Source: Eledone cirrhosa (lineage: Eukaryota). Taken from it: 64,000 nt of DNA. The number at the start of each line of letters is the position of its first letter. Positions within the stretch are counted from its first letter, which is position 1. The notes beneath the pieces are model-generated. The model did not search any database. It saw only the letters and a program-made list of their open reading frames with translations, and was not told where the DNA came from. Below, one piece after another: positions 44,655-64,000 of this stretch. The translations under genes and the position numbers were made by a program. The stretch spans positions 22,754,001 through 22,818,000 of the forward strand of contig OZ024748.1 in the NCBI GenBank assembly GCA_964016885.1. Direction: 5' to 3'.

Positions 44655-46288
44655 TTTTTCTTTCTCTTAATTTCGAGTACATTTTTGACCGGCCACCTTC
44701 CTTTTGGCAAGGTTGTGAAAGAAAAGAAATTGTCACTCCTTGAACCACAAGAATGTTTTGCAAATTTTGAAGGGTCCAGCTATCGCAGCAATTTGTAGTC
44801 TATGGATTAGGGAGTTGCACTCTTTGTCCACAGTTTTTATTTTCAGGTTCCACCAGTATTCCTTAGTACCATCTATCTCAACATATTCATCCTCATTTGT
44901 TTTAAATTTTGTTTTCCTACGTGCGTTCCAGATGGTTCTAGCTATCTCATCGTGTCTCATAGGGAGGTAGTAGCGAGACGACATTCTTTCACAGTTGGCA
45001 ACAATGTGGCTAACATCTTCGATCTTTGTTTTACAAAGCCTACATTTATTGTCGACTGATGGCCCTCCTCTTTTGCGTAGCAGATATTTGGTATGTATTT
45101 CTTGTTCCTGTATTGCATAGTGATATCCTTCAAGGTGGGATGTCAAAAAACTTCTCGGAACTCCATGCCAGGCTTTTTGAATGCTTTTTAAAATCTTGTT
45201 CGAGCATTGAATAGGAACTTCCACTGTTCCTGGGATACAGTTTTATATCAGGCCTTATTCCATATCCTTCCTCCAGATCAGTGGCTATTCTAATGATATT
45301 ATTTCCTTCAATCCCGCCGAGGTTGACTTTGCCTTTCATCCTTACGGGGTAGATAAAATAAAGTACCAGTAATGCACTGGGTAATTGCTGGCCTTGTGCC
45401 TAAAGTAGAAACAATTATTTCCTTCATGCTCATAAACATGGGCAAGATGGTTGCTGATCTTTTCTTCTGTTGAAAATGTTGCTTCAGTGTTACTATCCGG
45501 GTCTCGTATGATGTTAATATCGATTTTAGACCCCGGCGACCTTCTTTGCATTAGAAATATAGCCTATCCGCATCACCATTGATGTTAAAGTTTCCAGTAA
45601 CACCGAGAAGCTTGCGAGCTCTTACATCCATCTCACTTAGTTCTTGCAAGACCAGTTCAGCAGGCCAAATGTTGGCGTTAGGATTGGCACAGCATAAATA
45701 TTGTGGGCAATGTATTTGTGGTACACTGATAGTTCTGACGACCGTATTTTCTTTACTCTCCTGAGGTATTCAGTTCTGATTCTCTCCTTATTTATGGGTC
45801 CATCATACCTGACATTCTCATCCTGTCCAAGATATCTGTAGTTATCACTTGATTGTAGAGGTTGTATTGTCAAGCCGTTCATCTCTAGATTTCCAGAGAA
45901 GGGCACAACCCTTCCACGTTTTACTGTCAAATATGAACATTTCGACTCACCAAATTTCATTCTGATGTCTGCAGAAAATTGTGTAATGAGGTCCAATTGT
46001 TTTTTGATATAGTTGATATTTGGCCCATACAACTTCAGGTCATCAACAAAGAAAAGATGGGAGATACTTCTGGACCCACTTCCATGACCACTTTGTTTTG
46101 TGAGCAAGTATGACAGTGGGTTTAGTGAGAGAACGAAGGGCAGCACTGATAAGCTATCACCCTGAAATATGCTTTACTGGTAGTTTATGGTATTAGCCTC
46201 AATTTGCACCTTCTCACCCCTAAGGATCAAATTAGTGTACCAGTTCTTTGTCGGGCGTTCAACAGCAACTACTAGCTTGATCAGGTGT
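44655..46288 (-). mobile_element. R4/Dong-clade non-LTR retrotransposon (RT plus CCHC/RHD region), truncated and decayed
   Basis: IFQGDSLS, HLFFVDDLKLYG, MKFGESKC, YRYLGQDE (45637-46170) and CRLC...HIVANC...RHD (44733-45224). Frameshifts are present, and (TATG)n lies on both sides. Confidence 0.88.
45311..45413 (+). mobile_element. 5'-truncated SINE S1 inserted in the R4-like LINE, 13-bp TSD
   Basis: ATTATTTCCTTCA at 45298-45310 and 45414-45426. Confidence 0.93.
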
Positions 46289-58246: not shown

Positions 58247-58299
<53 letters not shown>

Positions 58300-58303
<4 letters not shown>

Positions 58304-58463
58304 AACGAGTAGGACCCCGACGGCTGAGCTCAAGCCGTTTCGACGGCTAATTCTGGACCAGCCGTCGGGGTCCTACTCGTTCCTATTACCCACTCTACTA
58401 CCCTAAGTATTGAGTACTTTGCTGCGTTATGGTCCACCTGGTTCCTTACCACATTTCTTCCGT

Positions 58464-58465
<2 letters not shown>
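58300..58465 (+). mobile_element. Family A element with fold-back
   Basis: TAGGAACGAGTAGGACCCCGACGGCTG ... CAGCCGTCGGGGTCCTACTCGTTCCTA, between (TA)n tracts. Confidence 0.88.
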
Positions 58466-58501
<36 letters not shown>

Positions 58502-58693
58502 GGTGGGTGTATTCATCTTGTTTTATCTAGTTTTATCTAGTTTTCCAAACGATTGATTAACATAAGATTTGTGAAATCAATTGGGATTTTAAGAATTAAA
58601 AAACTAAAAAAAAAAAAAATGTTTACATACAGTTTCAACGCAAACTTGAATTTTTCTATATTTCAATTTGTACAGAAAAAAAAATTATTTTCG

Positions 58694-58734
<41 letters not shown>

Positions 58735-58735
<1 letters not shown>

Positions 58736-58851
58736 CGAGGGAAAAGTGGTAAGGAACCAGGTGGACCATAACGCACCAAAGTACTCAATACTTAGGGTAG
58801 TAGAGTGGGTAATAGGAGTAAGTAAGACCCCGACGGCTGAGCTCAAGCCGT
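58735..58851 (-). mobile_element. Family A element copy
   Basis: Nearly identical to 16105-16222 and fused directly to the family B fold-back. Confidence 0.88.
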
Positions 58852-58911
58852 TTTTATAGAAGGAGCCTCAACAGGACTAGCACTGTTTCATTCAGACGAA
58901 ATCTTTAGGAA

Positions 58912-58964
58912 GAGCTTCCTGAAGATTTCGTCTGAATGAAACAGTGCTGGTCCTGTAGAAGCTC
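58912..58964 (+). ncRNA. Hammerhead ribozyme (type I) in family B fold-back
   Basis: GAGCTTC CTGAAGA T TTC GTCT GAA T GAAA CAG TGCTGGTC CTG TA GAAGCTC. Stem I is 7 bp, stem III is 4 bp, and the site is GUA. Confidence 0.8.
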
Positions 58965-59049
58965 CTTCTATAAAATGGAAAATTTTTACTCTGCGATGTA
59001 TTGAGTACCTTACTTACTGTGGTTATCCCCGACTCAACCCGGGACCTAC

Positions 59050-59605: not shown

Positions 59606-60232
59606 CGCTTCCAACCGTATTCAATTTCTTTAGACTAAGCTTCCAACCGTATTTCGTATTATATTTCTTTAGACTAAGCTTCGCTAATGAGGTCCAATAA
59701 ACATGAAACATGTTCGACGTTATTATTTACTGTCCCACCAATAGAAGACTCGCTTCCAACCGTATTTGGTATTCGATTTCTTTAGACTAAGTTTCGCTAA
59801 TGAGGTCCAATAAACATGAAACATGTTCGACGTTATTATTTACGTCCCACCAATAGAAGACTCGCTTCCAACCGTATTTCCTATTCGATTTCTTTAGACT
59901 AAGCTTCGCTAATGAGGTCCAATAAACATGAAACAAGTTCGACGTTATTACTTACCGTTCCATCAATAGAAGACTCGCTTCCAACCGTATTTCGTATTCG
60001 ATTTCTTTAGACTAAGCTTCGCTAATGAGGTCCAATAAACATGAAACAAGTTCGACGTTATTACTTACCGTTCCATCAATAGAAGACTCGCTTCCAACCG
60101 TATTTCGTATTCGATTTCTTTAGACTAAGCTTCGCTAATGAGGTCCAATAAACATGAAACAAGTTCGACGTTATTACTTACCGTTCCATCAATAGAAGAC
60201 TCGCTTCCAACCGTATTTCGTATTTGATTTCT
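59606..60232 (+). repeat. 113-bp tandem array (about 5.5 units), each full unit with a hammerhead-like core
   Basis: CTAATGA at 59684, 59797, 59909, 60022 and 60135, each followed by GAAA CA(T/A)G TT CGA. Confidence 0.9.
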
Positions 60233-61400: not shown

Positions 61401-61486
<86 letters not shown>

Positions 61487-61508
61487 TATTATATATATAT
61501 ATTTATAA

Positions 61509-61774
61509 CAAAGATATATATTGAGTTAGAAACTCAAAATAGTCTCTTACAATAAAATAGCTCTAGGAAAGAGATTTTTCCGAGCCGTATATTATAATTG
61601 AATATAAAAGAAAGATAAACACAGATATATAGATATATGTGTTCAAATCGTAAGGGACCAGATTCGTTAAGGTGAAAATAATACTAATTATGGACAATAG
61701 GGTTTGCCAGACTCAATTTAAGAATAAATCAAGAAAGAGACTATTTTGAGTTTCTAACTCAATATATACCTTTG
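61509..61774. repeat. Inverted repeat, 40-bp arms, enclosing an inverted pLTR-like piece
   Basis: 61509-61548 vs 61735-61774 (1 mismatch). 61635-61736 is the reverse complement of 62255-62330 apart from an indel. Confidence 0.85.
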
Positions 61775-61905
61775 ATATATTCGGCTCCGTTAATTTGTTG
61801 AGCTAATTCAAGTAATTCGAGTAAACCTGTCGAGTAAACCTGGCTGCTATTTTTAGTGGTGTGAGTTTGTGAGACACGCTAAGTTCCGATACCATGTGCG
61901 TTATT

Positions 61906-62070
61906 ATCGGTAGAGGGTCGGACGCCATGCTTTGCAGCCCAGTTACGCCCCTTTACGGACTGAGTTCAAATCCCGCCGAGGTTAACTTTGCTTTCATCCT
62001 TACGGGGTCGATAAAATAAAGTACCAGTAATACACTGGGATAATTGGTGGCCCTGTGCCAAAAGTAGAAA
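61906..62070 (+). mobile_element. SINE S1, slightly 5'-truncated
   Basis: B-box, core and tail. Confidence 0.9.
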
Positions 62071-62140
62071 GAGTTATTATATATACGCACACTATTCAGT
62101 TTTTTAATATACTTAGAAGTGACCAGGATACTAATATTCT

Positions 62141-62221
62141 TCACCCACTGATGAGCAAGAATTAGTATTCCTCTTGACAATTAATTTTGCGAAACAGCAT
62201 AGCCAAACGCTGTCTGGGTGA
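62141..62221 (+). ncRNA. Canonical type I hammerhead ribozyme
   Basis: TCACCCA CTGATGA GCAAGAATTAGT...AATTAATTTTGC GAAA CAGC ATAGCCAAAC GCTG TC TGGGTGA. Stem I is 7 bp, stem II is closed by G-C, stem III is 5 bp, and GUC cleavage is predicted after 62214. Confidence 0.9.
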
Positions 62222-62399
62222 TTGGTAGTTACCACAATTGCGGTTTGTATTTATTTTCTTGATTTATTCTTAAATTGAGTCTGTTTTCACCTTAGCGAAT
62301 CTGGTCCCTTACAATTTGAACACATATATGTATATGTGTGTGTGTGATGGTATGATAGTAATAAATGTGAAGATGATGTGATGTAGTGATGTTGCTGCT

Positions 62400-62743
62400 G
62401 GTATGATGGTGGTGGGAGGGATGGTGTGATGATGATAGTAGTGGTGGTGGTGGGATGGTGTGATAGTGGTGGTGGTGGTGGTGGGATGGTATGGTAGTGG
62501 TGGTGGTGGGATGGTATGATAGAGGTGGCGGTGGGATGGTATGATAGAGGTGGTGGTGGGGTGGTATGATAGTGGTGGTGGTGGGGTGGAATGATAGTGG
62601 TGGTGGTGGGATGGTATGGTAGTGCTGGTGGTGGGATGGTATGATAGTGGTGGTGGTGGTGGGATGGAGTGATGGTGGTGGTGGGGTGGTATGATAGTGG
62701 TGGTGGTGTGGTCGTATGGTAGTGCTGGTGGTGGGATGGTATG
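62400..62743. repeat. G-rich degenerate minisatellite (GTGGTGGTGGGATGGTATGATA)
   Basis: Units of about 21-24 bp abutting the LINE 5' end. Confidence 0.9.
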
Positions 62744-64000
62744 AGAATTCCCAGTTCTGTGACCCAGGGCGTAGTCACGTTAGTCAGGAAGGACGAGAAT
62801 AAGGGGGATGACATAGGCAACTTCCGGCCCATAACCCTGCTCAACACAGAGTTACAGATGTTGGCCAAGGTGTTGGCAAAGAGGCTGGCGCTTGTCGTCG
62901 AAAATCTGGTGGGAGTAGCGCAGACATGCGCAATCCCGACCAGGTCCATACACGACAACTTCCACCTCATGCGATACATCATAGAGAGGGTAGGGTGTAA
63001 ACCCGGCTTCGGTGGGGCCCTGATCAACTTGGATCAGTCTAAAGCTTTCGATATGGGTTGACCATCGTTACCTGGATGCGGTGCTCGAGGCGGCAGGCTT
63101 CGGACCCGTGTTCAGGGGCTAGATTGCTGCAATGCACAGCAGCAACATCTGCTCAAGGGTCAAGGTGAACGGCTACCTCTCGGAGCCGTTCCATATCACA
63201 CGATCCATCCGACAGGGATGCCCTCTCTCCTCCCTTCTGTACGTACTGACTCTCGAGCCACTATTGTGGAAGTTGGAGCTATTGCAGGGCATCCCTTTGG
63301 AACCGGGACTGCGAAAATCGGGGAGGTCGGCACCTTACTGGAGGAATACGAAAGGTTCACAGGAGCGAAGCTGAACCAGGACAAATCCGTCGGTTTGCAA
63401 CTCGGAACGTGGAGAGGCAAACCGATGCCTTCCGATGGCGTCGTCGGACGCTGGACGGAAGGACCGGTAAAGCTGCTCGGGGTCTGGTTTGGTCCGGACC
63501 TCCAGGTGGAGAAGAACTGGAACGAGGTGACGGCCAAGGTGTTTGCGCTCACCCAGAAGTGGGCCGAGTGCAAGCTATCCTTGAAAGGTCGAGCGGAGGT
63601 GGCGAACACTTTTATTGCGTCCGCCATCTACTACCGCTTGACCGTCGTGCCTTGTCCAGCCAAAACGCTCTCCAAAATGGAGCGCGCGCTCTTCCAATTC
63701 CTTTGGAAGAAACGGGCTCCTTTGGTGAGAAGATCCATCTGCTGCCAACACCCTTCAAACGGAGGGCTGGGGATGCCGTGGTTGACGATGCGTAAACATG
63801 CGCTCAGGCTGCGGCACCTCCACGTATACCTCACCAGACAACCGGTGTGGGCCCTGTTCGTGAGGCGAGCCTTCCCATGACTCATCTCGCTGAACGAGCT
63901 GCAGTCCTGGGTCAAGCAAAGACCGAGGAAAATGGGCGACTGGCACATCGAATGTGCTCAGGCGCTCACAGTCCTCTGGCAAACGGACCCGGCGATCAGT
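62741..64000 (+). pseudogene. L1/Tx1-clade LINE reverse transcriptase, disrupted; runs off the window
   Basis: NFRPITLLNTE, LDQSKAFD, RQGCPLS, GAKLNQDKS, KLLGVWF, GGLGMP. Frameshift near 63055, stops near 63120 and 63878, and the YADD segment is missing near 63320. Confidence 0.93.

What the first reader, a model, noticed from the sequence alone, without database searches (positions are those of the whole stretch)
62080..62330. Fully canonical hammerhead (GUC) with an upstream inverted copy of its 3' flank
All core nucleotides are intact, with 7-bp stem I, long stem II and 5-bp stem III, so it should fold as a monomer, unlike minimal Penelope-type motifs. Its downstream flank (62255-62330) recurs inverted at 61635-61736, itself bracketed by a 40-bp inverted repeat. 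This matches a Penelope-like inverted pLTR arrangement. If it lies in a transcribed intron it could cut the pre-mRNA (inference).
Basis: partly seen in the sequence, partly recalled or inferred. Interest (0 to 1): 0.75.

Follow-up and report, generated by a model that had tools for sequence, protein, structure and literature searches.

The report
Old two-armed hammerhead retrozyme copy
This is an aged copy of a small non-coding repeat, present in hundreds of places in this animal genome, that carries a predicted self-cutting hammerhead RNA motif and lands as two back-to-back arms ending at two fixed points, likely because a Penelope-type jumping-gene enzyme copied one RNA into both ends of a DNA break; nothing found here shows that it affects a host gene.

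Summary
The hammerhead is real: a type I motif at 62141-62221 with an intact core, GUC site at C62214, and compensatory changes in stems I and III across relatives. It is not a lone ribozyme or the pLTR of a coding element. It lies in a ~517-nt circularly permuted, ORF-less repeat (at least 86 exact hammerhead-pattern copies; 550 and 1,071 exact hits to two other words). The 'inverted flank' and '40-bp inverted repeat' are one structure: a minus arm (61504-61736) joined head-to-head to a plus arm (61735-62343) beside a TA microsatellite. In relatives, arms end at two fixed sites ~85 nt apart, one arm at each (36 of 37), and both arms look copied from one template. This is the Penelope footprint on a retrozyme-like element. 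This copy is old: arms ~5% diverged, a 165-nt insertion, a 29-nt deletion. Cleavage, expression, a circle and any host intron are untested; the upstream flank is predicted to compete with the fold. The scan has reported the same layout for other, younger families in this and other genomes. Known kind, new member.

The parts
62141..62221 (+). Type I hammerhead motif: stem I 62141-47/62215-21, core 62148-54, stem II 62155-62190, GAAA 62191-94, stem III 62195-98/62209-12; predicted cut between 62214 and 62215
   Evidence: Sequence, folds, covariation in 60 relatives
61735..62343 (+). Plus arm of the insertion: unit positions u1-447, holding the hammerhead; interrupted by a 165-nt insert, lacks 29 nt after 62283, stops about 30 nt short of the usual end A in TG/GGT repeats
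   Evidence: BLAST against a natural unit, arm alignment
61504..61736 (-).
61735..61736 (.). Head-to-head junction of the two arms, 2-nt overlap
61504..61548 (-). Left arm of the '40-bp inverted repeat' = last 45 nt of the minus arm (u518-562, the same segment as u1-45)
61735..61779 (+). Right arm of the '40-bp inverted repeat' = first 45 nt of the plus arm (u1-45)
61908..62072 (+). Later insertion of another dispersed repeat (SINE-like; the name is inferred from a B-box-like word, not from a database), flanked by an 8-nt duplication at 61900-61907 and 62073-62080
   Evidence: Absent from relatives at this position, present elsewhere at 82-91% identity; duplication seen
62119..62140 (+). Upstream segment complementary to the 5' strand and loop of stem II (about 62157-62178); predicted to compete with the hammerhead fold in this copy
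   Evidence: Folds; covariation test not convincing
61410..61503 (.). (TA)n microsatellite, the inferred insertion target next to end B
   Evidence: TA runs follow nearly all A and B ends in relatives

Best explanation
The motif is the hammerhead of an old genomic copy of a ~517-nt non-coding, circularly permuted repeat (retrozyme-like) whose copies sit at TA microsatellites as two head-to-head arms ending at two fixed sites, likely written by a Penelope-type (probably Neptune-clade) reverse transcriptase/endonuclease acting in trans on one RNA. Shown: the unit, its copy number, two fixed 3' ends (A, u464-480; B, u548-565, mostly 561-564), one arm at each end, variable 5' truncation, read-through into the preceding unit, closer identity of the two arms of one insertion, covariation of the hammerhead stems. 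Inferred: the endonuclease nicks both strands in (TA)n; each nick primes reverse transcription at one of two internal sites of the same uncleaved multimeric or circular RNA; the two prematurely ended cDNAs join. Inferred: the hammerhead was selected in source copies to cut multimeric transcripts to unit length. This window's copy is likely a decaying passenger whose core happens to remain intact; it would cut only a plus-strand transcript.
For: Copy number: 86 exact matches to a 32-base hammerhead pattern, 550 and 1,071 to two other words, reversed controls 0. Unit: 22 natural monomers of 502-533 nt, 34% GC, longest ATG frame 32-68 aa. Ends: in 84 loci picked by a word outside the hammerhead, 123 of 152 arms end at A (63) or B (60); 53 loci are head-to-head; of the 37 with both outer ends at fixed sites 36 are A+B, 1 A+A, 0 B+B (binomial p 5.5e-10). 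One template: arms within a locus 93.4% identical against 88.3% to other loci, 37 of 40 loci. Contigs of two public runs (one sample) show TA loose ends at the same two sites. Hammerhead selection: 95.4% of cells paired, 30 double changes against 6.8 in shuffles (0 of 500), three recurrent swaps. Candidate driver: RT + GIY-YIG ORFs of 938 and 636 aa in this genome; one two-armed copy of such an element ends its arms at two sites 60 nt apart in TA. Papers: PLE inverted 5'-truncated copies, tails and TA bias (PMC8557442, passages); both-strand cutting, two internal RT starts, uncleaved RNA as template (PMC11167929, parts 1-2 of 4); PLEs proposed as movers of retrozymes (PMC7229834, Discussion; bioRxiv 10.64898/2026.07.22.740005, parts 1-3 of 5). 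Age of this copy: 127 of 134 aligned positions agree between its arms, secondary insertion, deletion.
Against: No autonomous element sharing sequence with the unit was found (50 loci examined out of 10,594 GIY-YIG candidates), so the driver is inferred from footprint only. Long tandem arrays typical of retrozymes were not seen: median arm 249 nt, longest 835 nt; the one arm with two whole cores (L137) has a stem I mismatch in both. 16 of 53 two-armed loci have at least one end off the fixed sites. 5' ends do not pile up at the cleavage site (3 of 75 arms at risk end in u286-294; 68 of 109 read through), so the insertions give no direct sign of cleavage. Covariation counts sequences, not events; each swap may be one event in one subfamily, and the 60 rows were hand-picked from 96. 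Rfam has no match. The TA microhomology at A and B means the exact end points are uncertain by a few bases.
Confidence: 0.8

Rival explanations
1. The unit is the pLTR (3' end) of an autonomous Penelope-like element not yet found, and the window holds an ordinary 5'-truncated, inverted insertion of it.
For: The footprint is that of PLEs (PMC8557442, passages); dual hammerheads on opposite strands 100-700 bp apart are described for truncated PLEs (PMC4209133, part 1 of 4). Only 50 PLE loci were compared. Xenopus retrozymes are related to pLTRs (bioRxiv 2026 preprint).
Against: The 20 arms longer than one unit continue into the preceding unit rather than an ORF; the one Neptune-type family here in which a hammerhead core was found 3' of the ORF carries a minimal motif of unrelated sequence. 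Derivation from an old pLTR stays possible.
Confidence: 0.1
2. This copy is a functional host element: it lies in an intron or long transcript and cuts it, lowering or shaping expression.
For: Core and stems are intact, which holds for only 10 of 44 hammerhead segments in the loci picked by a word outside the motif (counted under a strict stem rule); its hammerhead state lies about 2 kcal/mol above the ensemble against a family median of 4.
Against: One copy among hundreds with neutral-looking decay around it; no host exon recognised in the window or the next 10 kb (91 frames scanned, only LINE/PLE domains hit); competing hairpin with the natural flank. An intact core is expected in some copies at about 3% divergence per arm, and the finding was picked for being intact.
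Confidence: 0.06
3. The inverted layout arose after insertion, by DNA-level fold-back or repair at TA repeats, or from a DNA transposon with terminal inverted repeats.
For: TA runs and palindromes are unstable (general knowledge); outer ends resemble inverted repeats.
Against: The two outer ends are different points of the unit (A and B), not mirror images, in 36 of 37 cases; junction points vary freely and differ between arms; the 45-nt repeat in this window is a by-product of where the plus arm was truncated.
Confidence: 0.04

Closest known systems
Metazoan non-LTR retrozymes (Cervera and de la Pena 2020, PMC7229834: passages, section 14 and Discussion read; Li, Clavereau and Pollet 2026, bioRxiv 10.64898/2026.07.22.740005: parts 1-3 of 5 read, supplements closed)
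   Same: Non-coding low-GC unit with a canonical type I hammerhead, partial tandem organisation, many dispersed monomers, co-occurrence with PLEs.
   Different: Unit of ~517 nt (170-400 nt in the 2020 paper, 51-972 in the 2026 survey); mostly sub-monomeric arms, no long arrays seen; stable 4-bp stem III; head-to-head arms with fixed ends (the word 'inverted' does not occur in the main text of PMC7229834); RNA and circles untested.
Endonuclease-bearing Penelope-like elements, Neptune type (PMC8557442 passages; PMC11167929 parts 1-2 of 4; PMC4209133 part 1 of 4)
   Same: Inverted 5'-truncated copy at the 5' end, partial tandems, optional tail defined by two end points, TA/AT-rich targets, hammerhead in the repeat, templates read through the hammerhead site.
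   Different: No ORF; tail about 85 nt instead of 30-40; canonical rather than minimal hammerhead; no sequence link to the PLE families sampled here.

Membership tests
Type I hammerhead ribozyme | Core CUGANGA, GAAA, NUH | tested here: met
   62148-54, 62191-94, 62212-14
Type I hammerhead ribozyme | Three helices around the core, stem I open | tested here: met
   Folds; compensatory changes in stems I and III
Type I hammerhead ribozyme | Match to a curated Rfam hammerhead model | tested here: not met
   No hit at gathering score; no hammerhead family at E<=10
Type I hammerhead ribozyme | Loop 1-loop 2 tertiary contact | not tested
   Upstream bases can pair with loop II, but no 3D or probing test was possible
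Type I hammerhead ribozyme | Mg2+-dependent self-cleavage 3' of C17 | not testable with these tools
   Needs in vitro assay
Non-LTR retrozyme | Non-coding unit with a type I hammerhead | tested here: met
   22 monomers, longest ATG frame 68 aa
Non-LTR retrozyme | Tandem organisation with at least two consecutive complete hammerheads | tested here: inconclusive
   20 of 152 arms exceed one unit; L137 has two cores 518 nt apart but a stem I mismatch in both; L062's second motif stops at the cut site. The window copy has one motif: not met for this copy.
Non-LTR retrozyme | Expressed as linear and circular unit-length RNA | not testable with these tools
   No RNA run listed
Autonomous Penelope-like element | RT + GIY-YIG ORF between pLTRs | tested here: not met
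   No ORF in unit; long arms continue into the unit; no link in 50 PLE loci
Autonomous Penelope-like element | Inverted 5'-truncated copy and partial tandems | tested here: met
   53 of 84 loci head-to-head
Autonomous Penelope-like element | Two 3' end points (tail) and microsatellite targets | tested here: met
   123 of 152 arms end at A or B, nearly all followed by TA; spacing about 85 nt, longer than the published 30-40

The most novel reading that the evidence does not exclude
Two reverse transcriptase subunits of a Penelope dimer copy one circular retrozyme RNA from two fixed start sites into the two ends of a TA break, so each insertion records both priming events; this family would be an older, low-processivity example with an 85-nt offset, and its hammerhead would be held off by flanking sequence until the RNA is made circular or bound by protein.
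Probability: 0.3. Interest if true: 0.65.

Novelty: new member of a known kind. Interest (0 to 1): 0.38.

Why it matters
The single copy matters little. The family gives genomic support for two published proposals: that Penelope machinery moves retrozymes (so far argued from co-occurrence and phylogeny in the papers read), and that a Penelope enzyme primes on both strands at two internal sites (shown in vitro for one lizard element). The one-arm-per-site rule (36 of 37) and the shared template of both arms make that mechanism testable with a short, ORF-free RNA. Younger families with the same layout would be better material than this one.

Tried and rejected
Rfam: no hit. RNA evidence: no RNA holder listed; only contigs of one sample could be laid; the higher depth over the 3' half there is confounded by sister families sharing that segment and was not used. 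Conserved anti-hammerhead hairpin as a family-wide switch: 82% of cells paired but covariation score reached by 29 of 500 shuffles and nearly matched by a slid control; probability below 0.5 in all 7 intact monomers folded as circles, where the upstream segment mostly pairs elsewhere (15 of 22 monomers dropped for broken core or stem). Rejected as a family switch, kept as a caution for this copy, whose 29-nt deletion removes a second complementary stretch. Pile-up of 5' ends at the cleavage site: not seen; a mild excess at u300-329 (25 ends of 100 at risk) may be alignment drop-off or stalling. Autonomous partner by homology: none in 50 PLE loci; 38 non-standard continuations past end B were listed but not fetched. 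Genome-wide search for tandem dimers: not obtained, so long arrays elsewhere are not excluded. Host gene: 91 frames from the window, the next 10 kb and two PLE loci gave only RT, zf-RVT and GIY-YIG domains; short exons would be missed. Pol III read-through from the SINE-like insert: a T6 run at 62100-62105 lies before the motif, so unlikely (inference). Literature: five searches; none listed a cephalopod retrozyme paper; an octopus repeat annotation (PMC13282606, passages) has no occurrence of ribozyme, hammerhead or retrozyme in its main text; supplements were not read.

Full report
1. Observation. The sequence holds a type I hammerhead on the plus strand at 62141-62221, with every core base in place and the GUC triplet ending at C62214. 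Stem I has 7 Watson-Crick pairs, stem III 4 pairs plus A15.1-U16.1, stem II about 11 predicted pairs with a bulge and G-U pairs. The bare motif folds with all three helices (-20.7 kcal/mol; z -2.25; 4 of 200 shuffles as stable; the reverse strand scores similarly, so the z-score alone says little). Rfam does not recognise it. The inverted copy and the inverted repeat are present, the latter 45 nt at 95.6%.

2. Copy number and unit. The window lies in a 3.0-Gb genome (animal by inference; earlier notes call it octopus-like, which I did not determine). A DNA search gave 2,068 first-look candidates, 40 scored. Exact patterns gave 86 hits for a 32-base hammerhead pattern, 550 for a 22-mer downstream of the motif and 1,071 for a 23-mer at one end (this also counts internal tandem junctions); reversed controls 0. 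Mapping 60 loci to a natural copy (L022:2239-2800) showed a circularly permuted unit of 517 nt in which u1-46 recurs at u518-563. Twenty-two natural monomers measure 502-533 nt, 34% GC, longest ATG frame 32-68 aa.

3. The window copy. Minus arm u330-562 at 61504-61736; plus arm u1-158 at 61735-61907, then a 165-nt insert flanked by an 8-nt duplication, then u151-447 at 62073-62343 with a 29-nt deletion after 62283. The arms agree at 127 of 134 aligned positions; with the insert and the deletion this marks an old copy. The minus arm ends at site B in a TA run; the plus arm stops about 30 nt short of site A in TG/GGT repeats that precede a broken LINE.

4. Insertion footprint of the family. From the first 100 listed places of the 22-mer (contigs C1 and C2 only) I obtained 90 loci and dropped 6 as same-place or segmental duplicates. 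Of 84 loci, 53 are head-to-head, 29 single-orientation, 2 mixed. Of 152 arms, 63 end at site A (u464-480) and 60 at site B (u548-565, mostly 561-564), nearly all followed by TA. Of 53 two-armed loci, 36 are A+B, 1 A+A, 0 B+B, and 16 have at least one end elsewhere; 36 of 37 gives p 5.5e-10 against equal chance. Arms of one locus are more alike (median 93.4%) than arms of different loci (88.3%) in 37 of 40 loci with enough overlap, which fits one template, though local gene conversion is not excluded. 5' ends are scattered; 20 arms exceed one unit (longest 835 nt); 68 of 109 arms read through the cleavage site and only 3 of 75 at risk stop there, so the template was uncleaved or religated. Contigs of two runs from one sample show TA loose ends at the same two sites; that sample may be the source of the assembly. 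I had seen the two end clusters, the TA targets and the head-to-head layout before opening earlier notes; the term 'two-armed' and the idea of counting which arm uses which end came after reading them.

5. Is the ribozyme under selection? In 60 segments chosen by hand from 96 distinct ones to cover the subfamilies, 95.4% of cells pair, with 30 double changes against 6.8 in shuffles (0 of 500) and far lower values for slid partners: A-U to G-C next to the cut site (12 rows), U-A to A-U at the end of stem I (10), C-G to U-A in stem III (7). These are probably three events, but each keeps the helix, which points to selection in source copies. Inserted copies decay: 10 of 44 segments from the loci picked outside the motif pass a strict core-and-stem rule (counted).

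6. Will this copy fold? The three-stem state lies 1.8 kcal/mol above the ensemble for the bare motif and 2.1-2.5 with longer natural flanks (no tertiary energy in the model). The upstream segment 62119-62140 is complementary to the 5' strand and loop of stem II; its pairing probability is 0.49 in 62120-62250 and 0.29-0.52 in longer contexts, 0 when the construct starts at 62130 or later; the centroid of 62110-62250 loses stems I and II. As a family-wide switch this hairpin is not supported. Cleavage by a short construct is likely (inference from the motif); in context it is open. In the 2026 preprint only 1 of 9 predicted Xenopus retrozyme dimers cleaved.

7. The driver. GIY-YIG search: 10,594 candidates, 150 scored. 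Long frames carry RVT_1 and GIY-YIG (L185, 938 aa; L188, 636 aa) and a Cx2-5CxxC linker before the nuclease, the mark described for Neptune and Nematis clades. In 50 such loci the unit matched only as separate TA-bounded insertions of family or sister copies. One family (L188, L192, L200) ends 534-537 or 594 nt past its stop, carries a minimal hammerhead core, and in L200 the two arms use one end each: the same rule in an autonomous element, n = 1. The enzyme is thus inferred from footprint, not from homology.

8. Host context. No host exon was recognised: 91 frames scanned gave only retroelement domains; short exons would be missed and introns here may be long. No RNA run was listed. The intron idea is untested.

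9. Comparison. It works like a non-autonomous Penelope-mobilised element and is best filed with metazoan non-LTR retrozymes, with tandem-dimer membership inconclusive and expression untested; it is not an autonomous PLE. Read: PMC4209133 part 1 of 4; PMC11167929 parts 1-2 of 4; PMC8557442 passages; PMC7229834 passages, section 14 and Discussion; bioRxiv 10.64898/2026.07.22.740005 parts 1-3 of 5 (supplements closed, and they may list related invertebrate families); PMC13282606 passages. Earlier notes of this scan describe the same layout for 310-, 422-, 460- and 467-nt units in this genome and others elsewhere; the sequence look-up returned only an unrelated note. They are leads, not support.

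10. Verdict. Observation confirmed; interpretation partly supported. New member of a known kind; an old copy of an older family. Interest 0.38, carried by the family-level footprint rather than by this copy.

Noticed in passing
window 58295-58990: A second TA-flanked inverted element (128-nt arms 58359-58486 / 58712-58839) next to a palindromic stretch at about 58856-58975 with hammerhead-core-like words on both strands; its end word recurs beside several family loci.
   Followed up: no
window 59625-60230: Tandem array of about five 113-nt units, each with a hammerhead-core-like word altered at G5; possibly a dead minimal-hammerhead repeat.
   Followed up: no
window 62723-64000 and L061:1-650: Broken LINE reverse transcriptase fragment (RVT_1, zf-RVT) preceded by a 25-nt GGT-rich tandem repeat that abuts the plus arm.
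   Followed up: partly
window 44733-46173 (-): Another broken non-LTR retrotransposon (RVT_1, zf-RVT).
   Followed up: partly
L062:3220-3250: An arm in which the hammerhead stops at the GUC site and joins unit position ~395 with 2-3 nt of microhomology: either a chance deletion or a template jump onto a cleaved RNA end; n = 1.
   Followed up: partly
L157:170-560, L203:2481-3090, L188:2029-2160: Diverged relatives (69-77% identity) that share the 3' segment with both end sites; L157 carries a different, decayed hammerhead-like motif upstream. The shared segment may hold the enzyme recognition site.
   Followed up: partly
L200, L188, L192: Neptune-type Penelope family with a minimal hammerhead about 385 nt past the stop and two 3' ends 60 nt apart; L200's two arms use one each.
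   Followed up: partly
window 50764 and 52015 (+): Two further hammerhead-core-like words found by a loose pattern scan; the first resembles words seen in L190 and L201.
   Followed up: no
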